Shown here: positions 241-64,000 of the stretch, piece by piece
How the letters are laid out: each line of letters opens with the position of its first letter
How positions within the stretch are numbered: the stretch's first letter is position 1
NCBI GenBank assembly: GCA_002245135.1
Contig: NGBS01001166.1
Span: 186,001-250,000 of the forward strand
Origin: Proteromonas lacertae
Lineage: Eukaryota
Length of the DNA stretch: 64,000 bases
Direction of reading: 5' to 3'
Translations under genes and position numbers: made by a program
Notes under the pieces: model-generated
Seen by the model: only the letters and a program-made list of their open reading frames with translations
What the model was told of the DNA's origin: nothing
The model's database searches: none

Positions 241-1094
241 TTATTTAGTTTTTTTCTTTTGTTTTATTTCTTCATATGTTTTACCTTCTGATTTACTTTC
301 TCTCTTATATTCATCAGAAGTTTGTATAGATTTTAATTGTTTCTTGGTCTTCGTTGGTTTTAAATCTTCTTTCGTCATTCCTATTGCTGCTAACGCCTCT
401 TCATCAACTTCCATCAACCTTTCATCATTTATTTCTTTACTTTCTTCTTTTGGTTTTGATGGTTTTAAATCTTCTTTCGTCATTCCTATTGCTGCTAACG
501 CCTCTTCATCAACTTCATCAACTTCATCATTTATTTCTTTACTTTCTTCTTTTGGTTTTGATGGTTTTAAATCTTCTTTCGTCATTCCTATTGCTGCTAA
601 CGCTTCTTCATCTGGTTCTTTAAATATGTATTCATCAAGAACAGATTTCTTCTTTTTATCTCCATTGACTGGCTTTGTAAAATTTTCCATTGCATTCTTT
701 TCTATTGTATTACAAATAGGAGCTATTTCTATTTCTATTTTCTTTAAAGCTTCAATAAATTCCGAGTGGTATAATTTTGATTCTTCATTACTGACATTAT
801 TAAATTTCAACTCAAGATTATTTAAATCATCTCTCAATTTACTATTTTGGGTTTGTATTTTTTTTATACTTTGTAATCTCCTTACATTTTGTTTTATCAG
901 TGATTCATATAATGACTTTGATTGTAAATCACTTGATAAATATAAAATTTTCAGTTTAGCACAATTACTGTTTATTGAGTTTGTCCTATTATAAATATTA
1001 TTTCAATATACCTTAAATTAAACATTTTATCTATTGTATTAAGGCAGTCACGAATTCTTGTACTTTCTAAAAATAATTAAATTCATATACCCAT
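241..1094 (-). CDS. Hypothetical coiled-coil protein with three 34-35 aa tandem repeats
   Basis: ATG at 1094; GT-AG introns of 24 nt (1090-1067) and 26 nt (1011-986) join it in frame to ORF 241..837. Confidence 0.7.
355..613. repeat. Coding tandem repeat, about 2.5 units of 102-105 bp
   Basis: GGTTTTAAATCTTCTTTCGTCATTCCTATTGCTGCTAACGC recurs at about 356, 461 and 563; encodes DEEALAAIGMTKEDLKP. Confidence 0.95.
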
Positions 1095-43221: not shown

Positions 43222-43411
43222 ATGTATTGAATAGTGGATTTGATTATATTATTTTCTTAATATTAATATTTTGATTGTATTTATCAAAAAAATCATATTG
43301 TTTATGGTAAATAGAAAGAACGACAATCTAATTTGAATGTTTTAGAAGTCGGATTATCTAATTCTGTTAATTTAATTTGTTCGTTTTATTTATTCAAAAT
43401 TGTTTTTAATA

Positions 43412-46400
43412 ATGAGTTTGTTTTCATTCATTCTGTTTGTTAGTTTAGTTTTAGGTGGTGTAGATGATGCTGTAGGCTATGTGTTTAACAGTCCAGGAGG
43501 ATCATTAGAGCTATATATAACAGAATTTCTTCCATCTCTTGGCTTTAAAGCCCCTGCTTCATTTTATTATGTTACAAGTTCTAATGAGCAAGATTTAGAT
43601 ACAGAAATCGTTAAACTTGCCAAAATCAACAAGAGAGTGATTTTCGGTTATGTTCCCCAATTCAAACCCAGTATAATCAATAAAATTGCAAAAAAGAATT
43701 CTGTCGTTTTTATTACACCAGCAGTATCAACAGAAGACAGTTGCTACAGTAATCTAATTCAAGGGTATTCTGTGTGCAAATCAATTTCAAGAATATTAGA
43801 GTTAATTAAGCATGATTATAAATCATTTACTATCCTTTATGATTCACAATCGAACATTAATAATTGTGCAAATCTAATACATGAGTTTCTAAATTATAAT
43901 TCATATACGAATCCATCTATAACAGAAATTGTTTCTTCCTCAGATATAGATGTTTCTAGTATAAGTAGTGATGATGTAATTTTAAACTTTCTATCAACAT
44001 CATTATCAAATAGCTTATACTCTATTTCACCTCGATCATTTAATATTATTGGATTTCAAAATATCGATATTCAACAGCATGATTTAACAAAAATGACAGA
44101 TACTTATATAGCTAGTGAAAGTAATGATGATTGTGGCTCTATAGACTATGCGACATCATCATATCCATCACCAAATATTGAACAATTTTCACTGTACATT
44201 TATAATTATTTAATTTATATAATTTTCATAGAGGTCAATCACTATTTCTATTTTTAGAGAATGCCAAGAATATTGGATTTAAAGGTCATGTTGATTTACA
44301 CAAATTATTGACATTGACACAATTTTCATTCAAATCATCAACTATTACCTTATTACCAAATCTAAGACTATCTAATAGAATATCACTCTCTAAAATAGAT
44401 AATAGTAATAAATTTATTCCAATACAGAGTATTCCAGGAATTAATGGCATATATTATAGCGATATATTAGATAATCAATATGAAATGATATGTGACATAA
44501 CAAACTACAATGATGAAGTTAAATCAACTGATTATTACGTTATATTAATAACATATTTAACTGGAGATTTATCAAAATATGATTCAAGTGTTAAAACTGG
44601 ATTAAAAATAGCATTAGAAATATTAAACAATGATAATCCAATATTGAACAGAAATACTCATCCAATCTATATGGATGCAAATAGTAATAACTTAAATGAT
44701 GAAATAATTCATTATATTAATTCATTTAATGTTATTGCTATTTATACTACAATGGAATTTACTGATTTTGAAGTATTTACAAATACTGCAAATGAAACAA
44801 TATTTGAAACTCCATTTATATATCTCAATCTAGTACCAAACGAAATAGTGAGTGATAAATACTTCTTAAATGGAATGAATATAGGAAATTTATGGAGAGA
44901 AACTAAAACAGCATTAAATCCTAAAAACATATTCTTTATAGGCAGTAAAGGAACAGTATCAGCAAATGCAATATCTTATATATCCTATGATGCTTCATTG
45001 AATGGAATTAATGTTAGAGGTAGTTATATATTAGATAGTAATACATACGAACATGCTGTAAATGCGTGTAATGAGATTGAAGCAGAATGTAAACTACATA
45101 GTGATTGTTATATTATTACATTTATGGAAAGGAATTATACTTTGAAGTTTTATGAAGAATATAAGATTGCAAGATTAATATATCCAATTGTGTCTTATAA
45201 TTTAGATGAATTAATGATTAATTCTGTTAATAAAACATATGTATAATTATATTTTTCTTTTTATATTGTATTTAGTATGAAAACCATTATGTTATTGGAT
45301 ATTTCTTCAATGAAATGGAACTATCAGATGATGTTGATAATCGATTAAGCGATTACATTAAATCAAATTCATTTTATAAAGATTTTATTGTTACTTCAAA
45401 CACAGCTATTTTATATTCAGAAATAATGCTATTATCATCTGTATATTATTGTATTCTAAATTATATGAATAGGTTATTGATATTACAAGGCAAATATCCA
45501 AAGAAAAGATTAAATATTCAATGAAATATGGTTATGTAATAGGCATAGGAGGTGTAATAAAAGGAAATGATGAAGGATATGCTGATTTTAATGTTCATAC
45601 AGGAAAGATTAGTAATGGAAAGATAGAAGAAATTAGTAAATCATTTTTTGTAGAAGTATCAGCTGTCTTTAGTGATTCAACCAAATATTATGATAGAGAT
45701 TCAAACCAGATTAAAACAAGAGAAGTTAAGACAATATCTTTCTTATATGTGAGAAATGAAAAGAATGAAGATAGAATCAATCATTATGTATTATATGATT
45801 CATTTGTGATTGAATATTTGAATAATCAATACAATGGTGTAGCTGGTTATAGAATAAGAACAGCATTTCCTGAATTATATAGTAATGAAGACTTAAAGAA
45901 TTATGTTCAATCTGTTGCTAATAGTGATGATTTATTGTTATTTGTTGGTACTTTGACTTTTGAAGAGAGAGAATCAATTCAACAGCTGTTGATTGATAGT
46001 AATAAGTTGTTATTGAGTATTCATCCTGCTGTTGGAAATCAATGTTATAGAAATATTATTCAAATATCATTTTTTTTCGTTTATTTTTAGCATTTATCTG
46101 TTTCTATAATTCTAGTTTATTTTGGAGTATTGCCTCAACATTATATATTTACAATTATTGCATATTGGTATAAACACAGTAATAATTGCATTATGATATA
46201 TGGAGATAATGAAGTTAATAAACACACAGCAAATTACACTTTAAAATACACTGAAGAAATAAAGAATTATAAATGTGTTGGTGTATATGTATCAGATAAT
46301 TCAAATCTTACAGAAATCATTGAAAATGAAATTGTCAATAAATATACTGATGGTGCTGCAATAATAACAGCTTTAGATGAAAGAACAGAATCATTTCTAA

Positions 46401-47265
46401 TAGAAATGAGTAATTATAGTAGCAGTAATAATTATCTTTATCCAATTATAATCACTGATTATATTGAATATAAATACTTCGAATTAAAATATAAAGAATA
46501 TTATGAGAACGTTTATTTTACATCATCTTATTCATATCATTTAGATAATGAAGAAACAAGAACAATGTCAGAAACTATTACTAGTTACTATGGCAAATCA
46601 AAAGAACTAATGACAACAACAACACTTACATTATATTCTGCTTTGAGACTATTTACTGAAAGTTATCCAAATAATTATAACAACAACAGCAATGAAATAA
46701 GATATAACATGTATGATACTGTTATTACATCTCCAATGGGTAAGATTATTGTTGATACAAGTAATCTAATGAGAATGTATACAATGATGATTCAGATAAA
46801 GAATAATAACAGTGAAATAATACTAAGTTCTGATTATAGCTATTATGAATCACAATTTGCAGATATTGTATAATTTATCATTATATATATATTAATAATA
46901 GTTTAATAATGAATATTTAACATGTCATTTTGAAGAAGGTTCAATATCTGATGTAATAAAGGAAGAGGTTCAAGAAATAGGTATTTGGCTTGAAGATGAT
47001 GAAAGTGTTAGATTCACAGTTCAAGAATATCTCTATTATAATAAGTTCACATATGGAACTACTTATGTTGAAAAAACAGTATATTGTTCTGATGAAGAAT
47101 CGATATTTAAAATGGTTAATGATAGTTCAATATCATATATACTTTCAACATGTAATAGAACAGTCAATTCAAATATTGCTGAAGTTGCTAATGAGAAGAA
47201 TGTAAATATATTCATTTTAGAAGATCAATATGAACCAATATGTGAAAAGAGATTGTATATAATAT

Positions 47266-47297
<32 letters not shown>

Positions 47298-50200
47298 GAA
47301 ATAGTATGGTATTAGGATCTTCTCCTTCACAAAGACTCATTCCTCTAATTCAATATTTATTTACAGTAGTTGATTCAAATGTATATGTCATTATTCCACT
47401 TGCTTTCAACAATTCAATTGAAATTGATATGATACAAACCACAGTTGATGTAAATGGAGGTAAAGTAATTCAAATCCTATTCATTGATGAAGAAGATGAT
47501 AGTAAAAATGTGGCAAATGAAGTGAAAATCAGTAGTTTAATAGCTTCAATTTATAGAAATGGCAATACAGGTGGTATTATACTCAATTACCTTCATAAAT
47601 ATGATAAATACTTATTTATATATCTTGAAAATATGTTAAAATATCATACGCTTGGTCAAAATGAAAAAGAATCTGAATTTATCATTGTTTCAATGGATAT
47701 TGATAGAATCTTGGATATTGAAAATCCAAAGTTATTGGATAATCATGTTGCTTTAGGTGTGTCATACATAAGTAAAGAAACTAGTAAATTCTTATATGAT
47801 ATAAGTACAAATACATATGGAGAAGGAAATATATTAAAGAAAATAGAATCAAGAGGTTTAATTGCTATTGAATTTATATTAACTGTTAGTGTATTATTAG
47901 AGAATAGTGAAAATCATGATTTCATGGATTATATTCATATCAATGAGATTACCACATCTTTAGGAAATATTAGAATTGATTATGATAATTATTTTCCTTC
48001 AATAGTTTCCATATATGTTGCAAATACTACAAATATATTACATATAAGATATGTTTTATCCAACCAATGGCCTGGTGAAACTTATAGAATAACTTATCAA
48101 AATATCACATTATTTCCTTTTTGTGATGTTACAAATAAGAATAAAATTCAAGATAGATTGTCTATTAATGTCATTCTATTTGTTCCATTGCCAAGTAATT
48201 ATAAATTAGAAGGATATAGAATGTTACTCTCTTACTTATCAATAATTGATTATATTAACAAAAACTACAGAGTTAATGGGTTATATATAAATCCAATCGT
48301 TATTGATACAAAGGGAGGGTATGAAATAGTTAGAGAGGTATTATCAAAGATGTCAATAGAATATAACACCAAAATAGCATTGGGAATTGATAATAGTTTG
48401 AATAGGAAAGAAATAGCAAATGAATTAGATGATTATGATGTATTATTAGTATATCCAAATGATTTTGAAGGATATGAATGCAAAGAGAATATTATATACG
48501 TTGGAGTTCCATTTGCAGCTAAAGTAACTTACTTACCATGGATCTTAGGTCATTTAAATAACAAAATTTATGTTGTTTATACAGATTCATATGATAATGA
48601 TGTTATTTCTAAAATGATTAGTCATGAGTTGAATTTAAGAGGATATTCTATTGTTGGTATTTCAAAAGTACCAGAAACTAATTATATACTAAAAGAAGTG
48701 GTCAATATGGTACATATGAAGATGAGAAATGGTGGTGTAATATTATCATTCTTAAAAGGAAATGCAGCTAAAGAATTATACAAAGCATGTTATGATGAAG
48801 ATATTAAATATCCAAATTACTATATTATAAGCGATAATTTGAATGTAGCAAATATAAATAATGATGAAGGAGTGTATATGATGAATCATTATATATGGAA
48901 TACTTATCCTGAAGAGTATTATGATGTGGAAGAATATGTTAATGTTTATAACAACAAGTATACATTCATTACAAATCATACAACTAGTTTCGTTCCTGCA
49001 TTTCTTTCTGTTAAAATATTAGCATTAGCATTTCAACATATTACATTCAATGAGAATTATTCTTCTGCTTTTACAGTTGATTCTATTCTCAATAAAGTTC
49101 ATAATGTTTCAACATCACAGATTAAAATATATAACAACAATTTCGCATCTTTTACTTTGAGTATAAAACAGATTAAATATAATGAAACTTCAAAACAGTG
49201 TTATGGAGATATAATCTATAAATATCAATCAAATTCAGAACCAAATCCTTGGGCATCTACTTACAATCTAAATGGTAAATTTATATGTGATTGGAATGAA
49301 TCAAATCCAAATAAAAATGAAACAATTCCAGTGGATGCTGTTTCAATTGCATTAGTATTTCCATTAAGTGATCTGGAATTAGGTAGTTATGCAACTGATA
49401 TATTAGAATCAGCCATATCAACATTATCTGAAATAAATGATAAAAATGGAGGTGTTAATGGTTTGTATATTGATTACATTGTTTTTGATTATAAATATGA
49501 AACTGAATCAATACTAACTAAGATTGCTTATGATATATTAGAGAATGAAAATATTGTGTCTGTTTTTGGATGTTTGAGTGAAACTTGTAAGAATATTATT
49601 TCCAGTATATTGCAACAGAAATCAATTTCATTATGGTATCCAGGAACAGCATATTGTCTCAGATATGATATCTAAAATTGGTAATATAAGAACAGCAGTA
49701 TTCTTTTATTTAAGTGGATCTTTATCATCATCAGTTTTACATGAAATAGAAAATCAAGGTATTAGTTTATCTACAGTTAATCTAATTCTAATGAGATTTT
49801 CAAAAGCTGATTATTCAGATGAATTATTGATGAAATTATCAGGAGCTTTAATACCAGCAACTTATTCTTCAGATTTATCAAGTCCATTAGCAAGATCATT
49901 TCAATCAGATATGAAAGGTGGATTAGGAAATACAGTAGAAATACCAGAAGAAATGGAATATGTATATTCAGCCTTGCATTTATGGAAAAATAGTTTAGAA
50001 ACTAGTATAAAAGACAGTGGAGGTGATATAAACCCGCCAATTGAATATATTCGATTGAATATGATTGATAAAACATTTACATCTCCATCTGGTCCAATGA
50101 TCTTAGATAAAACATTATATGTAAAGAGAAGTATGTATGTATTTAGAGTTAGTGATGATGGTAAATTTATTCAAATATATCCAAAGACAGGATCAACTGT

Positions 50201-51469
50201 ATTATATGATCCAATTCCATATCCAGATGGTGTTCCAGCAGAATGTAATTTTGGTAAAAAGAAAGTATATTTTGAATATAATACCATGATGAAAGCTGTT
50301 GCTTATGTGTTAATGAGTATTGCAATAGTTTTATCATTTTGGTCATTGTTATTCACATATGCATCAAGAAATAAAATGATTATTAAATCATTTGGTAGAT
50401 CTTATAGTTTTATATTTGCAGTACAGTTGTTGATACTATCATTAGCAGTAATACCAATGGCAATTGCACCAACTAAAAGTAATGGGATTTGCACAGCAAG
50501 AGTTGTATTCTTAGGTTTATGTGTAAAAGGAGTGTTAGGTTTAATGATAGCTAAATGTATGAAAATATATAACAGATATAGAAGATTGAAAAGAAACATT
50601 AAAAAGAGTAGAATAAAAATGGTTAGATTATTATTTACTTGGTTGTTTTTTGAATTATTAGAATCATTAATATTGATATTGTGGTTTACTTTAGATCCAA
50701 ATGAATATGAAGAAACGTATAGTCAATCTCTCAGTGGTTATTTTTTCGATGAGTATATTAGAGAATGTACTACATCAACTCCATTTTTGTATATAATATC
50801 TATTATATATTTCATGAATATATTTCTAGAATCGTTGAATTTATTACTGATGGAATTCCATTAATAATTCTGTTATATATCACTAATGTAATAAAGAATA
50901 AAATTAATGATCATAATGAAGGAACAGCAATGTTTATTTCTAGTTGTGTGATATATATCTTTTTTTCATTAACATTTATCTTGTTATTAGCTTCATCTTA
51001 ATGTTTTTTACCTGTTTTTGGTGTTGTTATGACTGTATTAGATTTTTATGTTAATTCAGAACCTAATACTGTTTTGTTATTAAGAGCAATGGGAATTGAA
51101 ATTACTCAAATTTTAATGATTATGTTACAATATGGAAATATCTTTTTTTTTACACAATTTTCTTAATGATGTTATTTAATTCTATTGTTTACTAAAAATG
51201 ATTAATGTTTATATTGATGATGATTCAAACAGAATAACACAATCAGGCAGCCAAGCAAGTAAAACTGAAAAGAAATATCCTTTTCATATCTTATTCATCC
51301 TATTTATTTTCTTAATTTATTCAATCTGTTAGATTCTTCCCATCATTCTTCTAACTCTCAAAACAAAACTCAAACCTCTACATTCCTTACATCACACATG
51401 AAATCTATGTTTACAACATCTACATTAAATGCAATTACAAAAAATCAATCATCAAGGAAGTTGTTATAA
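43412..51469 (+). CDS. Giant class-C-like 7TM receptor with about 6 tandem AmiC/UrtA-like periplasmic-binding (Venus flytrap) domains
   Basis: Signal peptide MSLFSFILFVSLVLG; repeated motifs such as EIN..NGGVNG, VFGC.S, YPNDFEGYECKENIIYVG and F.SPSG; C-terminal hydrophobic helices with C..R, L...K..KIY and HNEG; frame break at about 49640. Confidence 0.75.
51138..51192 (+). other. U12-type AT-AC intron, 55 nt
   Basis: ATATCTTTTT donor, TTTTCTTAAT and TTATTTAAT branch candidates, 3' TAC; gives QYGIKMINVY at the end of the last TM helix. Confidence 0.8.
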
Positions 51470-51523: not shown

Positions 51524-54500
51524 CTATTTAATATTATAAAAATGGTTTGATAATTCTTTCTTTAATTCTTTACCAATTCCATCTATTGTTATTGATTTAA
51601 GTGATGAAAACGATTTTAAAAACGATACTAATTCTAATTTATCTATCTCTTCTTTTATTGTTATTGTTAATAGACTTAAACATTCAAACACTTCTTTGTC
51701 TTCTGTCATCAATCTTAATTCTTCTTCATTTAACTTATTTCCTGATAGATTTATCTTCTGCAATGGCTTATGAACTTTTAATCTTTCTATTAACATTTTT
51801 AATCCTCTTTCACTCATTCCTATATCTATTTCAATTAAAAAACTATGTTATATTCATAAAATACTTGAAATATTTAATATTAATGAATAATTATCATCAA
51901 TAAATTTATCAAAATTTTCACAAATAATCTCTATTCCTTCATCTCCAATTGGATTGTTAAATATTGAAATATAATTTAAATCTTTTGGTATAGATTGAAT
52001 TAATTCTGATAATCCTTTATAACTGATATGATTATTGGATAAATCAAGTGTTTCATAATCAATCTGTTTTATGATGGGAATGTGAGAATCATTGATATTT
52101 AAATCTATTGCATTATATACCTTGATTTAATACTGGATAAATCATAGTATTTATACATATCACTTTTTTTAGTACAATAGTCTAGATAATACTCCAATTC
52201 TTTATTTTTCCAAGATGAATTTTTCATCTGAATGAACGGATATTCTTCATTTTCTAACGATTTTGAACATATTGATTTTAATCCATTCATTTTGATATTA
52301 TTCTCATTGAGATTAATTACATTACACTCTCCAATTAAATATAATATATCTGTAAACATTACGGCACTTTCATCATTTATTGATGTATTACTCAAATTAA
52401 GATCACTGTCTATCATTATATCCAACTTCTCTTCCAACAATTTTAATCCAATATTACCAATCGGATTATCTATTACACAGAATAATAAAGATTATATAAC
52501 AATATATATATATATATATATATACTGTTAATAATTAATTGTTCAATATTATCATTCTCTTTCACATAATTCATTAAATAATCTATACCTTTTGAATCAA
52601 TATTATTATCAGCTAAATCAAGTACTTCAATCTTTTCATCAGCAATTCTTAAACCATCAACTAAATATTTCATTCCTAATGACGATAATCCCATTTCTAT
52701 AAAACATTTATAAAACAACAAACTATACTCGAACAATTCAGATAACTTCCTAATAAATGGATATGCAGAGATAAAATTCTCATTCCTTCATCTCCTATTT
52801 CATTTTCATATAATTGAAGTTCTTTTAGATTTGGAAATGAAGATAAATTGTTTATCAGTATTTCTACACTTTCACATGTCAGATTATTATCTAAACAAAT
52901 GGAAATTTAAAAACATACAACTCAAATCTAACACTTCTATTTCTTTAAATTCATTTAATCTTAAAGTAATGAATGATTTGAAAAAATCATCATTAATTCC
53001 ACAATGATTCAGATTTAATCCATTATTTTTGTATTTGACAAATTTAATTAACTCTGGAATATCTTTGTCAATCAACAATTCTTTATTTCTTCCATAAATA
53101 TCAAATACTATTTTTGAAATAGAAAATTTTGAGAATACTGCTTTTAATCCACTAGAATAAATATCCCAGTTGTATGTAATATTTATTTTCTTTAGATTTG
53201 GATATTTAAATAACTCTTCTGATAATATTATCATTGATTTATCATTTAAATTCATTCCACAAAGATTCAATTCATTCTTGTCATTTATTAATAAATGAAA
53301 TATGGAATTAATAATTTGAATCCTATTGGACCAATTGGATTATCTATTTCATAATAATCAATACAAATAGAAAAAAATCAATACATTCAAGATTTACATA
53401 TTTAAGTTTCATAAATGGAATTGATTTTACAAATGATTCTATAAAACGATATGTAAGATTACAACTACATAAATTCAACTCTTGCAGATTTGATATTTGA
53501 TTATATAATGCTCCAAATAAAGGCTGGTATCTGATCTGAATATCAAGAATTTCTAAACAAGTAAATAATACTACAATAATACCAAATTTTAGTTTTTTAA
53601 AATTGGATAGTTTTAGTAATCTAAAAAAATAATCCATCCCTTCTTCACATAAACAAACACAAAGTTTATTAGCAATGACTCTTTCATTTAAATAATGAAG
53701 AAGGAGATTGAAAATCATTTCATCTAAACAACAAATCTTGTTTTCTTTGTTTTTGTGATAAATTTGAAATTTCAGTTTATCTTTTATTGATTCATCTCTT
53801 TTGATTAGTTTCATCATTAATAATATCGATAATATTCTATCATTTGGTTTATTGTTGTAAGATTCAATCAAACCATCTCTCATTAATTCATTCTTATTAT
53901 ATTCTATATAATAGTCTCTTTGAGTATCTAATGGAGTTATTTCTAGTAAATAATCATTATTGAAGAATGTATATTTTCTTTCATTATATATCATTATATT
54001 ATTATTTTCATCTCTAAATATTTCACTCACTTTTATCATTTCTTTTCTCAACTCTTTTAAACTCAATCTTTCTTCATTCTTCACATTCAACATTCTCTCC
54101 ATCATCTCTTCCATCATATCATCACATTCTACATCTATACGATATTTACATCTCAGAATTTTATTCAGTGTTCTGTTGATATTATTATCTTCATTAAATG
54201 GTAATTTTTTGTTTATCATTTCATATAATATACAGCCAATAGACCAAATCACACTTTTATCATTACATTCTAATCCATTCAATTCTTCAGGGCTTTTGAA
54301 GCAGATATCATATAATCTTATATCTTCTTCTTTTCTCAATGTGTTTAAAAACAAATCACAGATCTTTATTTCACCTTCACTTTCATATACTATGTTACTA
54401 CTCTTCAAATTGTTTATTATTACATCATATTCACTCAATACCACTAATATATCACATATTGAACATATAATAGCACAAATATCACCAGTTATCAACGAAT

Positions 54501-54820
54501 TATTATGAATTATTTCTTCTAAGTCTCTTTCATAATATTCTCTTGACAATATCATATGATCACCATATTTATTCATCTCAAACACTTTTGAAGGATATAA
54601 TAACGATTTACAACTATCTAACAACAAGGAGTCAGTCTCATAGAATTTTAATATATTCTTTTCTTTTATATCACTAACATTTAACATTTTCAATTTTTTA
54701 ATATTACTTCCATATTCTACAACTATATCTACTTCAGTTACACTCTTTTCTATTCTCTCTTTTAGCTAATAATAATAAATCAATAAAAATACATCTGAAT
54801 TTGAGGGTAATATCGAGGAT
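51524..54820 (-). CDS. Pseudokinase + ribonuclease-inhibitor-type LRR protein; 5' end apparently cut by the viral insertion
   Basis: NNLKSSN, CDLF, SPE and IWSIG kinase remnants; LRRs NPIGPIG, NEIGDEG, NNIDSKG, NPIGDEG; the frame extends upstream through a 27-nt intron to the element edge with no ATG in that upstream part. Confidence 0.75.
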
Positions 54821-54842
54821 AGTAATAATAATAGTAAATAAA

Positions 54843-54891
54843 GGTTCTGGCACACCGAGCCGTATGACTCGGGCTCCTGGCACACCGAACC
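54843..54891. repeat. GC-rich subterminal direct/inverted repeat
   Basis: CTGGCACACCGA at 54847-54858 and 54877-54888, with complementary arms GGTTC/GAACC and GAGCC/GGCTC. Confidence 0.9.
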
Positions 54892-54972
54892 AAACTTTTT
54901 AAAATTACGTGACATATGTCATATTAGGTCATAATTTATTTTTGCATTTTCTAGAATATTCTAATTTCATAT

Positions 54973-55281
54973 ATGGATAATCTAATTAAAGAAGAAGCAG
55001 AAAATGGTTTTGATTCTTTATATGAAATGTGTAATGTATATCTCAATAAGAATGATGATGGGAGCAATGACTATCAAACATCAATTAAAATAGCATGTGA
55101 GATTATATTAAAATTAAAAGAATTAAATGAAGAATATCATTTAGGATTAGATGATATGGTATTACATCAAATAGGAAGATTAGAAGGGAAAAAAATAGCA
55201 AGTCAATATTTACAAAAAGAATTAGAAAAACAATTAAATGAAATAATACCAAGTTTAAACAATATGTTAAAAATCAAATAA
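54973..55281 (+). CDS. Element-encoded hypothetical protein, 102 aa
   Basis: Intronless ATG-TAA ORF, amphipathic helical pattern, no recognised motif. Confidence 0.65.
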   Translation: MDNLIKEEAENGFDSLYEMCNVYLNKNDDGSNDYQTSIKIACEIILKLKELNEEYHLGLDDMVLHQIGRLEGKKIASQYLQKELEKQLNEIIPSLNNMLKIK

Positions 55282-55289
55282 AAAATTAA

Positions 55290-55763
55290 TTAGTCTTTAT
55301 CATCTTCCAATCTGTTTTTAAAAATATAATATATAGAATTTAATTCTGAATTTGTATCGATTAAATAGAGATAATGATTTTTTATATATCTAAAATTTTT
55401 AATAGTATTTGCATTCAAATTGAAATCTTCTTCAGAAATATATGCAAAATCTTCTACATAGAAAGTGTCCAGTTTATTAATTAATTTTTCTAAGTCTTCT
55501 ATAATATCCAGTCTATAAGATGTTAATTCAGATTTGTTAAATGTGGTTGCTATTTTACTTCTGTTATATTTCAATTCGATATTTTGTATGAAAGTTACAA
55601 AAGACTTTATTTTATCTCTTAGATCTGTTTTATCTTTACTACTAAAATTTTCACTTAGATTTAATTTATAGACCCTTCTACTTATATCATTTAAACTACT
55701 AATATAATTTTTAAGTACATCAAAGAATACATAGAATTCATATACTCTAGCAAAATTACTCAT
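55290..55763 (-). CDS. Element-encoded hypothetical protein, 157 aa
   Basis: Intronless ATG-TAA ORF convergent with the previous one, 8 bp apart. Confidence 0.7.
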   Translation of the reverse strand: MSNFARVYEFYVFFDVLKNYISSLNDISRRVYKLNLSENFSSKDKTDLRDKIKSFVTFIQNIELKYNRSKIATTFNKSELTSYRLDIIEDLEKLINKLDTFYVEDFAYISEEDFNLNANTIKNFRYIKNHYLYLIDTNSELNSIYYIFKNRLEDDKD

Positions 55764-55996
55764 ATTTTTTGGTATAAATTAATTAATTAATTAGATATAC
55801 TACTAATAGAAATTGTTCTTCCAATTCAAATCTGATCCAAAGAATATAATATAATTCAAGTAAAAGAAAGAAATATAAAGCAATAATATAAAATAATAAA
55901 TATAAGTCGTAAAAGAATTGATATATAACTTTTAGAAATTTCTAAAAGAATAAAAATAATAATAAAAATATAAAAAATTAATTTTTAATTTTCTAG

Positions 55997-58900
55997 ATGA
56001 ACCCTTTCATCCCTCCTTATTATTATTATTCAAACTTTAATTATTATAGTCCACCACCATTTGGAGCACCTTATATTCCTCCTCCACAAAATTATGGATT
56101 TAATCCCATGCCCATGCCATATCCAGGTATGGCACCTCCTAATATGTATGAACCACCTCCACCTATTCAAAATATTCCAGTAGTTAGAAATTATGTTCCA
56201 CCAAGAAATCTAGTTACAAATACAAATCCTGGTTTCAATTATTATCCTGGAAATATAGGAGTAGATTCAACACCTCAAATTAATATTCCTGAACCAGGAT
56301 TTGTAACACCACCTCCCAAGAGAAGATTAGATTTCGAAAACATAAGTCCTCCAAAAATACAAAGAAAAGGAGGTATGCAGGTTCAAATGCCTAATCCAAA
56401 TCCTAATCCAAATCAACCTGTTGTTGTTGTTAATCAACCTCCACCAAATGCACAACAGCGTAATAGAGTAGCTGATTTAAATTTATCTTATCAAGAAGAA
56501 AGAGATTTAAGAGAAGCAAGTGATATATTAGAAAATCATCCTACTAAATTATTAAAATTACCATATGAAAAGAGATTATATTATATGGACTTAATTCAGA
56601 GAAGTACAGATAATTATAGTAGAACATATCAAATTAACTTTTTAAATGATGTAAATGGTAAAGATCCAGATGCTGTTGTTGAAATTATAACTGATCCTAG
56701 TAGCCCATTAATTACTAAAATAAGAGAATATTTAGAAGATGTTAAATATATAAAAGTAACATTAAGTTTTAGAAGTGGTTATATAGGAGCAGACGATCCA
56801 GATTATAATAATCCAAATGGTAATAAAATTACAAATTGGGTATTCTTAGAATGTAGACCTGTAGTTATTACAGAATCAGAAATGAATGTTGCACATAAAA
56901 TATTAAAAGATAGAATAAGAACAGAAATGGGACCTTTATGGCATACTGAAAAATCAAGTTTAAAATTTAGACATGTTGGTGAAGTTGAAGTTCAATTAGT
57001 CAAAGCAACTGCTATGGCAGGTAGTGGTAAAAATAAAGAACTTCCAGATTGGATTAGAAATAGAAAATGTGTTATATCAATAGATAATAATAAAGAAAAT
57101 GATCAATTATGTTTTCTATATGCTATAGCAGCAGCATTTTTTCATGGTAATAATAATAATAAGAATTTAAATAGAGTAGAACAATATAAAGAATATATTA
57201 GAGTTAACTACAATTATAGTATGTTATATTTCCCAGTAGATCCTATAAAACATAAAAAACAAATTCATGAATTTGAAACAATAAATCATATAACATTAAA
57301 TATATTCAAAATAACAGATAAAGAAGTAGTTCCAATATATGTAACACATATAGATAAGTTCAATAATTATCCACATGTGAATTTATTATATAATGATAAA
57401 CATTATTCTACTATTACAAAATTAAATGTAATATTAATACCTAAAGGAAAGAAGTGTAAAAATGGTTATCCTAGATGTAATTATTGTTTTGCTTTATTAT
57501 CAACAGATGAAAAAAGAATACAACATGAAAAATATAATTGTCAACAACATAAAGGTATTATAAGAAATTTCCCTGAGAAAAATATTCAATTAGAATTTAA
57601 GAACTTTAAATATATGCAACTAATACCTATAGTAATATATTGGGATACTGAAGTTTATCAGGAGAAAGTAACAGATCCAATTTTAAATGAGAAAGGTATT
57701 TTATCAAAGCATATATTATCCAGTTGGTGTTTATATGTTGTATCAAAATATCCTAATATATATCCTAATAAAATTGAGTATGATTTTAAAACACCTAAAG
57801 ATAATGAAACAGATTTAGAGGATAGATTAATAGCTAAATTTATGGAAATACAAAAAGAAATATTAGATTTATATGAAGAAAAATTAAAAAATCCTGAAAA
57901 AATGATAGGATATAATAGAGAAGATCCTAAAAATAAATTGAATTATTGCATATACTGTAAAGAACCATTTGATTATAGGAATAAGAATAAGAAACCTGTT
58001 TTACACCACGACCACTTTAGTGGACAATATATAGGTAGAATATGTAATAATTGCAACTTCCATGTATGTTTAAATAATATGCCAATCCCTTGTATTGCTC
58101 ATAATTCCAAAAATTATGACAATAATTTCATTATTAGAGGATTGTCCAGATGGGATAATAAGTTAAGAGATGAATTTTGTAAAGAAAATAATATTGATCC
58201 TAATGTAAATTATGCTTCAGATACTGAATCTGATAGTGATACTGAAGAAGAAGATAATACTAGTTATACTAATTCTATTCCTGTTCCACATCAAGATAGT
58301 GATACATTTACTCCATTACCTCCTTATACTAATGGCTTTATAACAGCAAATAAAATAAAAGATTATGTGAAAAATTTAAGAAAAGAAAAACAAGAAGAAA
58401 AAGATGATAATAATAATTTCAGTATGAGTCCATTACATGATTCTTTAAGTGATATGGAAACTCAAGAAGCTGAAAGTGAAGTAATCCAAATTAATAATGA
58501 AGAAGTTAATGCATTGTTAGAATTAGAAGAAATGTTAAGAAGAGATAGTCCTAGAAATGCAGAAGATGTTATAGATGAAATAGATGAACAATCTGCTTAT
58601 AGAATTATTAAATGTAAAGATGGTAAAATAAGAAAATATAAAAACAAAAAACAATATAAATCACAATTATCAGTATTACCCAAAACAGATAATAAATTTT
58701 TATTAATAAAGTTCAACAAATTATACTTTATGGACTCTTATCAATTCTTACCAAGTTCTTTAGATTCTTTAACAAAGTCATTATATACTCAAGCAAAAAG
58801 AGATAATGGAAATTATCAAAAATATTTCAGTTATGTATATGAAGATATTTATAAAAAATATTCTGCTCCTGGTAAATTGGATCATGATATGAATATTGAT

Positions 58901-60913
58901 GCTTTTATCCATAAATGGTGTTTATCTAAAGGATATTTTCCATATGAATATGTAGATTCATTATCTAAATATTTTAATACTTTTGAACTACCTCCTAAAG
59001 AAGCATTCTATTCAAAGTTAAAAGATGATAATACTGTAACAGATGTTGAATATGCTAGTTGTCAGGCTTTATGGAAAGTTATTAGATGTGATAACTTAAT
59101 GGATTACAATTTATTTTATCTCAGATTAGATGTTCTTACATTAACATGTGTATTTGAACATTTTAGAGATGTTATATGGAATAATTTTACTTTAGATCCA
59201 TTATGGCATTGTAGTTCACCTGGTTTATCTTGGAGTATATTCCTTAAAAATTGTGATGTAAAAATTGATTTAATAAGTGACTCTGATATTTATGACTTTA
59301 TACATTCTGGATTAATAGGTGGGATTTCTATGGTTGGTAGTATGAGATATGCAGAGTCTTGGAATCATTATCAACCTCAATGGCAAGAGAAAAATAAAAA
59401 GGAAGTACAGGATCCAGATAATCAAACATATATTATGTATATGGATTATAATTCTTTATATCCAAGTACTATGGCTAGCATGAAGTTACCATATAGTGAA
59501 TTTGAATGGATTGAACCAACTACTGAAAATGTAAAGAAAATATTATCATTACATTACTATGAAGAACAAAGAGAAAAATATTACAATACAGAATGGATTA
59601 ATAAAAATATGTATGGATATATTCTAGAAGTAGATATTTCTCCTCCTAGTAATAGTAATGAAAGAAAAAAATTTGCTGAATATCCTTTGTTACCTGAAAG
59701 AAAAATAGTTGACTATGATAATTTATCTGAAATACAAAAGAAATGGGCAGAGTCTTTAGGATTAGTTTCAGAAGTTAAAAATAATATTGATAAAACATAT
59801 AAAGTTAAAAAGTTAAAGTCAAATGTTCCTAAAATAGTATGTGATTTAACAACAAAATACAACTATGTTGTTCACTATCAATATTTGAAATTTGCATGTG
59901 AAATGGGTTATGTTATACATCATATTCATAGAATTATCAGATTTAAAGAGTCTAATTATGCACATAACTTTGTAATGATGAATCATAACTTAAGAAGACA
60001 AGCTAAATTAGAAGGAAGGGATGCCGATGCTGATACTTTTAAGCTTATTCTAAATAGCGCTTATGGAAAGACATGTGAAAATACTGAGAATAGATGTACC
60101 TCCAAATTGGTTAATAATGAAGAAGACTTTTTACAGTGTACTTCCAATCCATTTTATAGAAGTTTTATTGCTATAGATAATAGTAACTTACGTATATGCA
60201 AATTTCAAAAATATAAATGCACTATTGATAAACCATCTTATATTGGTATGAGTATATTATGTGAATCTAAAAGGTTAATGGCTCAGTTCTGGTATGGACA
60301 TTTATATAGGAAATATGGGAGTAGTTTAAGATTATTGATGAGTGATACTGATAGTTTCATATTTATGGTTCAAACTAGAGATTTCTATATGGATATTATG
60401 AACGATCCACATTTTGAAAAGAAAGTTGATACTGGTAATCTTAATAAACAATACTTAATAACTAGAGGTATACACTATTCAAATGTTAATCAAAGTTCAG
60501 AACTTAACTTATTAAAAATAGAAGAAAATAAGAATGGTTTATACTCTATTACTAGATTTGCAGGATTAAAACCTAAAATGTATGCCTATGAAAAAGTAAG
60601 AGTAGACGATGATATACATTGTGTTACACATGATAGTAGAGCTAAAGGAGTTACAACTGGATATAGAATTAAAACTTGTGATTTTGACTTTTATAGAAAA
60701 ATATTAACAGATGCTGAAGATGAAAAGTCTTACAGAGTAGATAAAATCAAACAATATAGTTTCAGAAGTGTTAACCAAACTTTATATACTATGGAACAAA
60801 ATAAGTTGGCTTTTAGCATATTTGATTCTAAAAGGTATTATTTAGATGTTTATCATAGTATTCCTTTTAATGATTATTATCCACCTATTATTAATAACAC
60901 TACTAATGTTTGA
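55997..60913 (+). CDS. polB: Protein-primed family B DNA polymerase (Polinton type), 1638 aa
   Basis: ExoI WDTE, ExoII HNSKNYD, KGYFPYEY, ExoIII YLRLDV, motif A DYNSLYP, motif B KLILNSAYGK, motif C SDTDS and LKPKMY. Confidence 0.95.
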   Translation: MNPFIPPYYYYSNFNYYSPPPFGAPYIPPPQNYGFNPMPMPYPGMAPPNMYEPPPPIQNIPVVRNYVPPRNLVTNTNPGFNYYPGNIGVDSTPQINIPEPGFVTPPPKRRLDFENISPPKIQRKGGMQVQMPNPNPNPNQPVVVVNQPPPNAQQRNRVADLNLSYQEERDLREASDILENHPTKLLKLPYEKRLYYMDLIQRSTDNYSRTYQINFLNDVNGKDPDAVVEIITDPSSPLITKIREYLEDVKYIKVTLSFRSGYIGADDPDYNNPNGNKITNWVFLECRPVVITESEMNVAHKILKDRIRTEMGPLWHTEKSSLKFRHVGEVEVQLVKATAMAGSGKNKELPDWIRNRKCVISIDNNKENDQLCFLYAIAAAFFHGNNNNKNLNRVEQYKEYIRVNYNYSMLYFPVDPIKHKKQIHEFETINHITLNIFKITDKEVVPIYVTHIDKFNNYPHVNLLYNDKHYSTITKLNVILIPKGKKCKNGYPRCNYCFALLSTDEKRIQHEKYNCQQHKGIIRNFPEKNIQLEFKNFKYMQLIPIVIYWDTEVYQEKVTDPILNEKGILSKHILSSWCLYVVSKYPNIYPNKIEYDFKTPKDNETDLEDRLIAKFMEIQKEILDLYEEKLKNPEKMIGYNREDPKNKLNYCIYCKEPFDYRNKNKKPVLHHDHFSGQYIGRICNNCNFHVCLNNMPIPCIAHNSKNYDNNFIIRGLSRWDNKLRDEFCKENNIDPNVNYASDTESDSDTEEEDNTSYTNSIPVPHQDSDTFTPLPPYTNGFITANKIKDYVKNLRKEKQEEKDDNNNFSMSPLHDSLSDMETQEAESEVIQINNEEVNALLELEEMLRRDSPRNAEDVIDEIDEQSAYRIIKCKDGKIRKYKNKKQYKSQLSVLPKTDNKFLLIKFNKLYFMDSYQFLPSSLDSLTKSLYTQAKRDNGNYQKYFSYVYEDIYKKYSAPGKLDHDMNIDAFIHKWCLSKGYFPYEYVDSLSKYFNTFELPPKEAFYSKLKDDNTVTDVEYASCQALWKVIRCDNLMDYNLFYLRLDVLTLTCVFEHFRDVIWNNFTLDPLWHCSSPGLSWSIFLKNCDVKIDLISDSDIYDFIHSGLIGGISMVGSMRYAESWNHYQPQWQEKNKKEVQDPDNQTYIMYMDYNSLYPSTMASMKLPYSEFEWIEPTTENVKKILSLHYYEEQREKYYNTEWINKNMYGYILEVDISPPSNSNERKKFAEYPLLPERKIVDYDNLSEIQKKWAESLGLVSEVKNNIDKTYKVKKLKSNVPKIVCDLTTKYNYVVHYQYLKFACEMGYVIHHIHRIIRFKESNYAHNFVMMNHNLRRQAKLEGRDADADTFKLILNSAYGKTCENTENRCTSKLVNNEEDFLQCTSNPFYRSFIAIDNSNLRICKFQKYKCTIDKPSYIGMSILCESKRLMAQFWYGHLYRKYGSSLRLLMSDTDSFIFMVQTRDFYMDIMNDPHFEKKVDTGNLNKQYLITRGIHYSNVNQSSELNLLKIEENKNGLYSITRFAGLKPKMYAYEKVRVDDDIHCVTHDSRAKGVTTGYRIKTCDFDFYRKILTDAEDEKSYRVDKIKQYSFRSVNQTLYTMEQNKLAFSIFDSKRYYLDVYHSIPFNDYYPPIINNTTNV

Positions 60914-60997
60914 AACTTTTATATTTCTTTTTATTATTATATTTTTATATTATTATTATTTCTTTTGTTTTCTTTATATTATAAAAAATAAAAAATA

Positions 60998-62365
60998 ATG
61001 TATTTCGGATGGGATCCTGCTAAAGCATTTTTTAATACTATGAATGATGTAGGTAACTTAATGGATAAAAATATACAACATTTACCTAAACAACCTAAAT
61101 ATCCTGAATCATTGCAATATTATATGAATTATGGTAGAGATGGTATACCTAGAGAACCTCCTACTACTGACTATAAATTATATCCTAATCCTGAATATTC
61201 TCAATATCAAAATCGTTTACAACAACTATATAATAAATATCATTATTTAAGTGATAGAGATTTTATTAAAATGGTAATGAATCCTGCAGATAATAATGAA
61301 GTACCACCACCTATAGATGCTATAAAAGAATTTTTAGCTAGACAACCTGGTCATCAAATAGTAGACTTTCAGTATAAAAAGGATAATCCTTTCGTTAGTA
61401 TTAAAAAGCCTGGTTGGTTCCAGATGGATATAGTTTATTTTTTACCTGAAACACATCATCTGTATTTTATTGAAACTAACTCTCGAAAAGTATGGGTAGT
61501 ACCTTTGAAAAGAGAAGATGGAAATACTTGTTTAAATGCTTTCTTTTCTTGGTATTATAAAGAAGATCAAGAAGCTTTTTTAAATCCAAACTATCAACCT
61601 AATATAGTAGCTAAAAGAAGAGTTATTAGTATATTAAGTGATCAAGATGATAGTTTTAATAAAATAAAAGAATTTTGTGATACAGAAGGTATAAATACTT
61701 ATCAAAAAAATCCTTCAGAACATAGAATAATGAGTGTATTAGATAGAAGTGTATCTATGGTTAAAAAACTATTATATAAACATCTTGTTGAAATAGACTT
61801 TCCTGATCCCTTTCGTTATAGAAATCAAACTCATGCTAAAAGCTTTCCACCTAGTGCATATATGAATCAGTGGCTTACTAACTTTAATCATGAAGTATAT
61901 AAAGTAGTACAAGACTATAATAATAAACCTCATCCTGCATTAAAAGGATATACTCCTAATGAAGTATATCATTCTGAATTACTACAGAAAAGAGTATTAG
62001 TTGAAAGCATAAATAAAAATGTAGATAATGAATTTAAACTAGAAGATAAACAACGATTTAAAGTAGGCGACTATGTTAGATTTAAAGAAAGAAGAAGACA
62101 ATTAGATAAAATAACTACTTGGAGTGATGATGTTTATATGATTATAAATAAGTTTAGATTTTCATATCAAATAGGTGATACTAATGGTAACTTTGTACCT
62201 AATGTTAGTAATCAGAGGTTTAAGCATTATGAATTAGAATTAGTAGAAAGAGCGCAAGATAGAAATGCTTATTTTAGAGCGTATCAAGCAAACAGAAGAT
62301 TTTATAATCAACATTTTAGAAAAACATTAAAAAGACCAGGACTCAAAAGAAAGGGAATAGTATAA
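60998..62365 (+). CDS. Retroviral-like (rve) integrase of Polinton type, 455 aa
   Basis: FQMDI, ET.SRK.W..PLK, ILSDQD, LDRSV..VK, YNN.PH..L.G.TP and an SH3-like FKVGDYVR...WSDDVY.I. Confidence 0.92.
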   Translation: MYFGWDPAKAFFNTMNDVGNLMDKNIQHLPKQPKYPESLQYYMNYGRDGIPREPPTTDYKLYPNPEYSQYQNRLQQLYNKYHYLSDRDFIKMVMNPADNNEVPPPIDAIKEFLARQPGHQIVDFQYKKDNPFVSIKKPGWFQMDIVYFLPETHHLYFIETNSRKVWVVPLKREDGNTCLNAFFSWYYKEDQEAFLNPNYQPNIVAKRRVISILSDQDDSFNKIKEFCDTEGINTYQKNPSEHRIMSVLDRSVSMVKKLLYKHLVEIDFPDPFRYRNQTHAKSFPPSAYMNQWLTNFNHEVYKVVQDYNNKPHPALKGYTPNEVYHSELLQKRVLVESINKNVDNEFKLEDKQRFKVGDYVRFKERRRQLDKITTWSDDVYMIINKFRFSYQIGDTNGNFVPNVSNQRFKHYELELVERAQDRNAYFRAYQANRRFYNQHFRKTLKRPGLKRKGIV

Positions 62366-62400
62366 TATATATTCCATTAATTAATTAATTAATTAATTAT

Positions 62401-63648
62401 TTAAAGTTCTGATATTTCAATAAGTGCTCTGCTATTTACAGGCACTTTTGATAAATTATTTCCTTCTTCTGGAGGAGGAGGAGGTTCTTCTTGTTTAATT
62501 TTGGGTTTTGGAGTTTCTTTTTTTTCTTTAATAATATGGTGTTCTTTTGAAACTCTTCTTCTTTTGTTATATTTTCTATCTTCTTCATAATCACTATCAT
62601 GATCACTATTATCACTACTACTACTACTACTACTATCACTACTAGAACTATCATTTTTCTATATCAACATCTTCATGAGGGAATTTCTGGATATTTGAAT
62701 GTAGACCATCTATATATATTTAATTTCTGTTTTCTTTAGAAAATACCACTTTTCATTATTTGATTTAGCATCTTCCTGAAAATTTTTGAAAAATCACCTG
62801 TAAATTGGAATATGTAATGTGCTGAATTTGGCAAATATTTTTATATTACTATTAACATATTTTATTTCATCACAATTAGTTACAGCTATTGTTACTATAT
62901 TATTTTCTAAAAATTGATTTTGAAATTCTATATTATTATGTAAATTCATTATATAAGTTGTTGGTAAATATTTCATATAATCATATAAATCAAATTGAAA
63001 ATCATTAATTAATACATTGTTATTTGAATTAAATTTTATCTGGATTTTAGATGAAGTAAAAATTATTTTGTATTTATTTATTAAATTCCTATATTGATAA
63101 AAAAAGTATTATCATCCAAAATTTTATTAAGAGGAATAGTATTTTTGCAGAATAATGAATTAATTTTACTTCGTGTATTTGTTTTACGATTTTTTGCATC
63201 CATATACTTATCTTTTAAATAAATAAAAATTTCTTGATTTGCAACAAAGGATAAACTATAATATTCTGGATTGTCATCACATATATAAAATTTAGTATAT
63301 TTACTTTATTTTTGTAATCACAACTATATTTGATAGTTGTCCATATATAATTAATATTATTTTTGAGATTATTATTATGTTCCTTAATATATAATTTGAT
63401 AGGATTATGAATAAACAAAATTTGAAATATCTTTCATCCATAATATAAAAAGGAATTTCACAAGACCATGTATAAAAATGTTGACCTCTATTCATATTAG
63501 TAACTATTTTTAAACACATAAAAGTGTTGAATAAGAAAATCCAATTTCGATACCCAGTCCAACTGTGGGTATCTTCATATGCAATATAATAATTGCCTTC
63601 CATGTATTTTTTGACACAGGAATAATCAACACCAATATTTCCAGACAT
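62401..63648 (-). pseudogene. Element gene of about 400 codons broken by multiple small indels (decay or assembly error)
   Basis: Overlapping open frames from ATG 63648 to TAA 62403-62401 join with shifts at about 63418, 63306, 63102, 62800-62710 and 62656. Confidence 0.55.
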
Positions 63649-64000
63649 TTTAACTAATTATAATTAAAAAATTATGTAAGTGTTTGCTATTATTATATAA
63701 AATAATACAACTAATAAAAACAACAAAAATATTTAAAACAAATACAGAAATAAAGAATAATATTTTTATGAATATCAGTAAATATAAAAAATATTTATAT
63801 ATATTTATATAATATATTTATATTTTTTGAAAGACTTTTTAAATAATTCAATTTGTTTTTCACCAGTCTGAGTATTAAAATTAGTGCTTTGCTTAAAACT
63901 TTTATTTTTCTTTAATATATTTTCTAAAAATTTTATAGCAAAAAATCCACAATTTGATGTTGTGGACTTTTGATTTTGAATAGCATTAACTTTTAACTCA

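What the first reader, a model, noticed from the sequence alone, without database searches (positions are those of the whole stretch)
54821..64000. Integrated Polinton-like DNA virus with intact polymerase and integrase in a mini-intron gut-protist-like genome
Seen: gene structure switches abruptly from mini-intron host genes to intronless ORFs, and a 4.9-kb pPolB and a 1.4-kb rve integrase are uninterrupted. Established: pPolB plus a retroviral-type integrase defines Polintons/Mavericks, which usually also carry a packaging ATPase, a protease and double/single jelly-roll capsid genes. Inference: a recent, possibly still active endogenous virus whose accessory ORFs I cannot assign, perhaps an undescribed lineage.
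Basis: partly seen in the sequence, partly recalled or inferred. Interest (0 to 1): 0.88.

Follow-up and report, generated by a model that had tools for sequence, protein, structure and literature searches.

The report
Polinton virus inserted in protist gene
The window ends in the first 9 kb of a Polinton-type DNA virus, with unbroken polymerase and integrase genes, that likely inserted into a gene of a single-celled host; it is an unnamed branch of a known kind of integrated virus, one of its genes reads as broken, and whether it is recent or still active is untested.

Summary
Confirmed: from about 54821 to the window edge lies the left part of a Polinton/Maverick. The 1638-aa polymerase is unbroken, keeps all catalytic motifs, and folds into the terminal-protein plus vOTU-protease front described for Polintons. 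The 455-aa ORF has no Pfam hit but folds as a retroviral-type integrase; its triad is D-D(33)-D. New here: the last 192 bases encode what is probably the tail of the virion maturation protease (weak by HHalign), and the element cuts an open frame of a host kinase-LRR gene. Against 'intact and recent': the gene at 63648-62401 is split over at least five frame changes, by decay or assembly error. Capsid, ATPase, right repeat, target duplication, copy number and junction reads could not be tested (no genome, no runs listed). The closest relatives are unnamed Logan proteins forming one clade. A PolB-plus-integrase virus from Blastocystis datasets is already in print (PMC8502044), and the host here is only Blastocystis-like, not identified. 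Verdict: new member of a known kind.

The parts
54815..54820 (+). Host bases GAGGAT; predicted target-site duplication if the element starts at 54821 and duplicates 6 bp
   Evidence: Sequence. Prediction only: the right flank is outside the window.
54821..54972 (+). Likely left terminus / start of a terminal inverted repeat: AG-starting (AGT/AAT)n tract, then a GC-rich patch
   Evidence: Sequence. No inverted partner in the window. Folding not better than shuffles (z -0.95). AG termini of Polintons are recalled, not read in a paper here.
54847..54888 (+). Two exact 12-bp direct repeats (54847-54858, 54877-54888) 30 bp apart; candidate origin or integrase binding sites (inferred)
   Evidence: 2 matches in 64 kb, 0.01 expected, 0 of 100 shuffles with 2; the motif was picked by eye.
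54973..55281 (+). Accessory ORF, 102 aa, unassigned
   Evidence: element-like codon use; no significant Pfam, PHROGs or NCBIfam hit.
55290..55763 (-). Accessory ORF, 157 aa, unassigned
   Evidence: element-like codon use; no significant hit.
55997..60913 (+). Protein-primed DNA polymerase B, 1638 aa: Pro/Tyr-rich leader, terminal protein, vOTU, exonuclease with EndoVII-like and acidic inserts, palm
   Evidence: PF03175 E 8.4e-18; motifs D550/E552, NSKNYD, MDYNSLYP, KLILNSAYGK, SDTDS present.
56606..57013 (+). Terminal-protein domain (aa ~204-339), little-finger/PAD fold
   Evidence: Model pLDDT 85; Z 8.0 rmsd 2.8 over 108 (2r8j) and Z 7.8 rmsd 2.6 over 97 (4ir1); same fold match as reported for Polinton TP in 10.1101/2024.03.18.585575.
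57008..57478 (+). vOTU cysteine protease domain (aa ~338-494), Cys372/His469
   Evidence: Z 6.2 rmsd 3.8 over 110 to viral OTU 3phu; both residues invariant in 56 of 56 aligned sequences.
57926..58060 (+). EndoVII/HNH-like zinc insert (aa ~644-688)
   Evidence: Weak: PF02945 E 0.02, phrog_423 E 0.0036; the same Pfam is precomputed on many relatives.
60998..62365 (+). Retroviral-type (rve) integrase, 455 aa, triad D144-D215-D249
62401..63648 (-). Broken gene of about 410 codons with an acidic/basic tail; at least five frame changes or stops; unassigned
   Evidence: Coding frame steps 0-1-2-0-...-1-0 by codon-use scan. No homologue for the single-frame read-through among 1.84 billion proteins, none in PDB.
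63805..64000 (-). C-terminal 64 aa of a gene that runs off the window; probable adenain/Ulp1-type maturation protease (Q-x6-C-G motif)
   Evidence: Best of 825 window frames against a protease profile from related loci (E 8.8e-4, next 0.28; 0 of 2000 shuffles reach it); profile is adenain-like; HHalign weak (prob 5.8, E 0.0065).
51524..54820 (-). Host kinase + leucine-rich-repeat gene whose open frame runs up to the element; likely interrupted by it
   Evidence: Pkinase E 3.4e-20; a 27-nt GT-AG intron at 54792-54766 joins a 28-nt exon remnant in frame, with no start codon before the junction.

Best explanation
This is the left 9.2 kb of a Polinton/Maverick-type DNA virus with an unbroken polymerase and integrase, likely integrated into the 5' part of a host kinase-LRR gene and likely continued beyond the window by a virion module. 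Shown: gene content, folds, catalytic residues, position against the host gene. Inferred from Polinton biology (10.1101/2024.03.18.585575): an excised or incoming linear genome would be copied from its ends by the polymerase, primed by its own N-terminal terminal-protein domain, which the vOTU domain (Cys372/His469) would cut free; the terminal (AGT/AAT)n tract and 12-bp repeats would serve as origin. The integrase would join the ends to host DNA with a 5-6 bp duplication, using Asp249 in place of the usual Glu. The probable protease tail implies capsid maturation, so virions are likely in the lineage. Whether this copy can still complete the cycle is open, because its third large gene reads as broken.
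For: PF03175 and all polymerase/exonuclease motifs. TP and vOTU folds; best viral fold match for that part is an adintovirus polymerase, E 5.4e-16. Integrase fold and profile match to integrases beside PolB in related loci. Protease-like tail. Locus L002 has the same order and strands PolB(+), INT(+), protease(-), ATPase(-) further on; in 4 of 10 loci with a protease gene it directly follows, on the same strand, an unlabelled ~450-aa gene that may be the capsid. Distinct dinucleotide signature. Host frame cut at the boundary. Relatives with full-length PolB and integrase exist; P0007 and P0129 share a longest-contig length of 7636, which hints at linkage but does not show it.
Against: No capsid, penton or ATPase gene is in the window. 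The protease call rests on 64 residues, came out of 33 profiles x 9 queries, had no PDB or Pfam protease hit on its own and is weak by HHalign. Gene 63648-62401 has at least five breaks in 1.25 kb against none in 6.3 kb of PolB + integrase (chance about 1e-4 if breaks were uniform). No second terminal repeat or duplication is visible. The integrase model is of modest confidence (mean pLDDT 50). The third catalytic residue is Asp, where 11 of 15 distant hits show Glu and 4 show no motif.
Confidence: 0.8

Rival explanations
1. A Polinton derivative that now spreads inside the genome as a self-copying transposon: polymerase and integrase are kept by selection while virion-side genes decay.
For: Breaks are confined to the first gene on the protease side, while PolB and integrase are intact.
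Against: The broken gene is not identified as structural. The protease tail is open and keeps its motif. Several breaks lie at A/T runs, a one-base shift also occurs in the adjacent host gene near 53295, and false frameshifts are reported for multi-copy viral insertions (PMC10120064, section 7).
Confidence: 0.1
2. Chimeric assembly: a free linear virus genome, or another genomic copy, was joined to this host contig.
For: No reads or second flank could be examined; the breakpoint falls in an AT microsatellite-like tract that also occurs in the host.
Against: The join falls at what looks like a genome end (AG-starting tract, repeats, first ORF 150 bp in), not at a random internal point, and the element encodes an integrase.
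Confidence: 0.06
3. A mavirus-like virophage or a linear plasmid rather than a Polinton.
For: Mavirus also pairs pPolB with an rve integrase; cytoplasmic linear plasmids also have TP-vOTU-pPolB (10.1101/2024.03.18.585575).
Against: The exonuclease domain is complete here but a remnant in mavirus (same paper). Fold matches rank an adintovirus far above mavirus (E 5e-16 vs 3e-4). An integrase and probable protease do not fit linear plasmids. No plasmid or virophage sequence was in my tree, so this was not tested by phylogeny.
Confidence: 0.04

Closest known systems
Polintons/Mavericks (class Polintoviricetes), PF03175-type 'Alpha' PolB
   Same: TP-vOTU-exonuclease-palm polymerase, rve integrase, probable adenain-like protease, terminal tract, integration in a eukaryote genome.
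   Different: Only 28-35% identical in the polymerase core to the non-Logan relatives listed; integrase too divergent for Pfam rve and with D-D-D triad; 180-aa Pro/Tyr-rich leader and ~165-aa acidic insert shared only with P0007 of the 5 closest; virion genes not seen.
Blastocystis MELD virus (Starrett et al. 2021, PMC8502044 section 3.4; named 'Blastocystis MELD virus 3996' in 10.1101/2022.05.25.493380)
   Same: Alpha-adintovirus-like PolB plus integrase, unrecognisable accessory/virion proteins, long PolB branch, gut-protist association (host here only Blastocystis-like).
   Different: Direct comparison was not possible. No named record appears among the 120 best PolB hits or the 6 integrase hits, and the 'MELD virus sp.' entries in BFVD match at 10-15% identity (which MELD viruses these are is not stated). 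Here the element is seen next to host genes.
Alpha adintoviruses
   Same: OTU-PF03175 polymerase class and integrase; best fold match of the TP-vOTU part is Drosophila-associated adintovirus 2.
   Different: Adintoviruses are defined as animal-associated; this host has protist-like gene structure; hexon/penton untested.
Trichomonas vaginalis Mavericks and mavirus-like EMALEs
   Same: Integrated pPolB + rve elements in protist genomes (PMC10120064, PMC8547959 passages).
   Different: No KilA or helicase gene seen in the 9 kb; complete exonuclease, unlike mavirus.

Membership tests
Polinton/Maverick | Protein-primed PolB with intact exonuclease and polymerase motifs | tested here: met
Polinton/Maverick | N-terminal terminal-protein and vOTU domains with catalytic Cys/His | tested here: met
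   (Z 6-8, modest but both domains in the expected order)
Polinton/Maverick | Retroviral-type (rve) integrase | tested here: met
   Fold Z 15; profile E 5.7e-23; third residue Asp rather than Glu
Polinton/Maverick | Adenain/Ulp1-type maturation protease | tested here: inconclusive
   64-aa tail: E 8.8e-4 among 825 frames, HHalign prob 5.8
Polinton/Maverick | Packaging ATPase, double-jelly-roll major capsid, penton | not testable with these tools
   Window ends at 64000; no genome held; none recognised within the window
Polinton/Maverick | Terminal inverted repeats and 5-6 bp target-site duplication (PMC8547959, PMC3014272 passages) | not testable with these tools
   Only one end is in the window
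Polinton/Maverick | 5'-AG terminus with short tandem repeats (definition recalled, source paper not held) | tested here: inconclusive
   AGTAATAATAATAGT at 54821, but its first 12 bases occur twice in the host part too
Alpha adintovirus | OTU-PF03175 polymerase class | tested here: met
Alpha adintovirus | Animal host | tested here: inconclusive
   Flanking genes have 27-56 nt introns, dense packing and no named close relative; protist-like, not identified
Blastocystis MELD virus 3996 group | Sequence affinity of PolB/integrase to the published virus | not testable with these tools
   Record not available in the collections searched (no match); supplement was cut and had no 'Blastocystis' hit
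Mavirus-like virophages | pPolB with only a remnant exonuclease | tested here: not met
   Exo I-III motifs present
Linear pPolB plasmids | No integrase, non-integrating | tested here: not met
   Integrase present

The most novel reading that the evidence does not exclude
A deep, unnamed Polinton clade specific to AT-rich gut stramenopiles, whose integrases work with a D-D-D triad (5 of 7 family members) and whose polymerase carries a long Pro/Tyr-rich leader and acidic insert; it is still inserting into and knocking out host genes, makes virions from capsid proteins too divergent for current profiles, and would be the first Blastocystis-type virus caught with its host junction.
Probability: 0.3. 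Interest if true: 0.6.

Novelty: new member of a known kind. Interest (0 to 1): 0.38.

Why it matters
Polintons are common in protist genomes (PMC10120064), so the kind is ordinary. What this adds: a host junction for a lineage known otherwise only from unnamed Logan proteins; an integrase family invisible to Pfam with a Glu/Asp swap at the third catalytic position, which is directly testable in vitro; and a likely gene knock-out by insertion. If the host is a Blastocystis relative, an endogenous virus with its own integrase would be of use to a field with few genetic tools, and Blastocystis viruses are thinly described (5 papers held both 'Blastocystis' and 'Polinton'; the long-read genome paper PMC12129017 has no mention of 'Maverick').

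Tried and rejected
Whole genome: none held. Sequencing runs: none was listed for 54000-63900, which is no evidence either way. DNA context for close relatives: integrase alignment found none in viral contigs or metagenome contigs and one 304-bp scrap in genome contigs; P0008 found none; the PolB alignment gave only distant loci at about 25-42% best-segment identity (4; best 80 of 339). Terminal repeat motif in viral contigs gave only scattered matches that I took for chance and did not follow. tblastn of PolB against phage records: no match. ESM Atlas gave no result for either query. Broken gene and small ORFs: no assignment by Pfam, PHROGs, NCBIfam, PDB, the representatives library or profiles from related loci; the single-frame read-through covers only about two thirds of the gene in frame, so this is a weak negative. 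Ideas that its first piece is a protease or primase (from a G-x-H motif seen by eye) found no support. Mini-introns as explanation of its breaks: no fitting GT-AG pair was seen by eye. A statistical scan for a fixed intron length found no peak. Terminal hairpin: not better than shuffles. Rfam: 0 matches. Sigma-70 scan irrelevant and at chance level. Host naming by MCM7: nearest is an unnamed Logan protein at 88%; the E cut-off was strict and only 7994 candidates were scored. The original Polinton paper was not held. A search for D-D-D Polinton integrases listed 3 papers, none on point by title and abstract start; I did not read them. Earlier scan notes: nothing by place or sequence.
Full report
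OBSERVATION. Two long plus-strand ORFs, 55997-60913 (1638 aa) and 60998-62365 (455 aa), are uninterrupted. Two small ORFs precede them (54973-55281 +, 55290-55763 -). The region from 54821 differs from the rest of the window in dinucleotide signature (distance 0.090; five host blocks 0.021-0.038) and lacks the host's (AT)n runs (0 against 66 hits). GC is 24.9% against 27.6% overall, but the adjoining 51-54 kb is 22-24%, so there is no step. No whole genome is held and no sequencing run was listed, so everything right of 64000, copy number and junction reads are out of reach.

POLYMERASE. Pfam gives DNA_pol_B_2 at E 8.4e-18. Exonuclease and polymerase motifs are all present and shared with the five closest relatives. 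I folded aa 182-536 with a 56-row alignment (mean pLDDT 85). Residues ~204-339 match the little-finger domain of Y-family polymerases (Z 8.0, rmsd 2.8, 108 aligned; 4ir1 Z 7.8) and ~338-494 match OTU proteases (Z 6.2, rmsd 3.8, 110 aligned). The tool warns that Z under 8 can be a common arrangement, but this pair in this order is what Krupovic et al. report for Polinton terminal protein and vOTU (10.1101/2024.03.18.585575; parts 1-3 of 5 read). Cys372 and His469 are invariant in 56 of 56 rows. In BFVD the best match is Drosophila-associated adintovirus 2 (E 5.4e-16, 18% identity), mavirus is at 3.1e-4.

INTEGRASE. No Pfam hit for the window protein; 2 of 7 family members touch rve at E 0.088. 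The model (mean pLDDT 50, core 70-80) matches retroviral integrases (E 2.9e-9; core Z 15.0, rmsd 2.1, 132 aligned), and a profile of integrases from Polinton-like loci scores it at E 5.7e-23. The triad is D144, D215, D249 with 33 residues between the last two; D249's column aligns with the catalytic Glu of HTLV-2 integrase. The third residue is Asp in 5 of 7 family members and Glu in 2; of 15 distant hits 11 show Glu and 4 no motif. Several full-length Asp variants exist in one cluster, so the Asp form is likely functional; this is inference.

RIGHT OF THE INTEGRASE. A codon-use scan trained on the two large genes shows one minus-strand coding stretch from 63648 to 62401 that changes frame or stops at least five times. 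PolB and integrase have no break in 6.3 kb (chance about 1e-4 if uniform). It is either local decay or assembly error: several breaks are at A/T runs, the neighbouring host gene has a similar one-base shift, and false frameshifts in multi-copy viral insertions are documented (PMC10120064, section 7 read). The gene has no homologue in any search. The last frame, 63999-63808 (-), carries Q-x6-C-G. It is the best of 825 window frames against a profile of 9 proteases from related loci (E 8.8e-4; next 0.28); 0 of 2000 shuffles reached its 14.7 bits, the best 13.0. The profile is adenain-like (ASFV pS273R E 1.7e-10, adenain 1.5e-7). The match surfaced among 33 profiles x 9 queries, and HHalign rates it weak (prob 5.8, E 0.0065), so it is probable, not proven. 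Related locus L002 has PolB(+), INT(+), protease(-), ATPase(-) in that order.

LEFT END AND HOST GENE. 54821 starts AGTAATAATAATAGT, followed by two exact 12-bp repeats and a first ORF at 54973. AG-starting, microsatellite-like ends are typical of Polintons (recalled; the source paper was not held). The first 12 bases also occur twice in host DNA, so the exact base is inferred. On the minus strand a host kinase-LRR gene has a 27-nt GT-AG intron at 54792-54766; the 28-nt exon remnant above it is in frame and open up to the element with no start codon. The Pfam kinase match starts at profile position 61 at residue 59 of the next exon, so the domain begins about there and the gene's start likely lies beyond the element. 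A 5-6 bp duplication (PMC8547959 and PMC3014272, passages) predicts (G)AGGAT after the right end.

RELATIVES. The integrase has 6 relatives among 1809 candidates, 46-60% identical, all Logan-only and unnamed. The polymerase core has 143 hits among 3423 candidates; the five best (35-68%) are Logan-only, the other 115 listed are 28-35% and carry no informative name. From 164 core sequences I kept 46 after removing those over 65% identical to a kept one, forcing in the window and the five Logan proteins; these six form one side of a branch with SH-aLRT 100 (quick tree, LG+G4, no named references, midpoint root). Two rows in that clade's neighbourhood (P0008, and L003 on a long branch) call for caution about composition and long branches.

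HOST. Introns read by eye are 27-56 nt and inspected genes keep stops. Human Blastocystis subtypes have 30-nt introns and 39-55% GC, tortoise isolates longer introns, encoded stops and 21-23% GC, Proteromonas 27% (PMC12129017, passages and section 5). The window fits an AT-rich Blastocystis-like stramenopile loosely; MCM7 gave only an unnamed 88% relative. The host is not identified.

PRIOR ART. Starrett et al. [quoted passage not shown] Bellas et al. (PMC10120064, passages and section 7) show such elements across protists and do not mention Blastocystis in the main text. Searches for Blastocystis with Polinton, Maverick or endogenous virus listed no paper on integrated Polintons in Blastocystis genomes; subscription journals are not covered. 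10.1101/2022.05.25.493380 and 10.1101/2024.03.23.586382 were seen as passages only. Two earlier scan notes (other genomes, unchecked) report other integrated or integrase-bearing elements of protists; they were not tested here and are not support.

VERDICT. It works like a Polinton and meets every defining feature that could be tested; virion genes, repeats and duplication could not be tested. New member of a known kind, in an unnamed divergent clade. Recency and activity are open. Interest 0.38; the bolder reading (gut-protist-specific clade, functional D-D-D integrase, ongoing gene knock-out) has probability about 0.3 and would merit about 0.6.

Noticed in passing
window 49665-49675: Host periplasmic-binding-protein + 7tm_3 receptor gene changes frame without an evident intron, and part of the second binding domain seems missing (Pfam match resumes at profile position 183): deletion or assembly fault.
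   Followed up: partly
window ~53295 (-): One-base frame shift at a T run in the host kinase-LRR gene with no intron to explain it; decay after the insertion or a long-read error.
   Followed up: partly
window 43376-50864: Two tandem host genes that look like bacterial-type periplasmic binding domain arrays, the second fused to a class C GPCR membrane domain (PF13433 + PF00003); the first piece tested of the upstream gene had no Pfam hit.
   Followed up: partly
window 62376-62400 and 55777-55793: (TTAA)n palindromic runs between the convergent integrase and broken gene and upstream of ORF157; 12 hits in the 9-kb element against 1 in 55 kb of host. Possible element-specific transcription signal.
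   Followed up: partly
window 54910-54921: 12-bp palindrome TGACATATGTCA near the left end, a candidate binding site.
   Followed up: no
window 55997-56536 and 58154-58711: Pro/Tyr-rich leader (41 Pro in 150 aa) and acidic insert in the polymerase, shared with P0007 only among the 5 closest relatives.
   Followed up: partly
window 316-623: Three ~102-bp tandem repeats inside a host ORF at the window start.
   Followed up: no
L002:1044-13836: IMG/VR contig with PolB, integrase, protease and ATPase in the same order and strands as the window's element; a useful layout guide though only 29% identical.
   Followed up: partly
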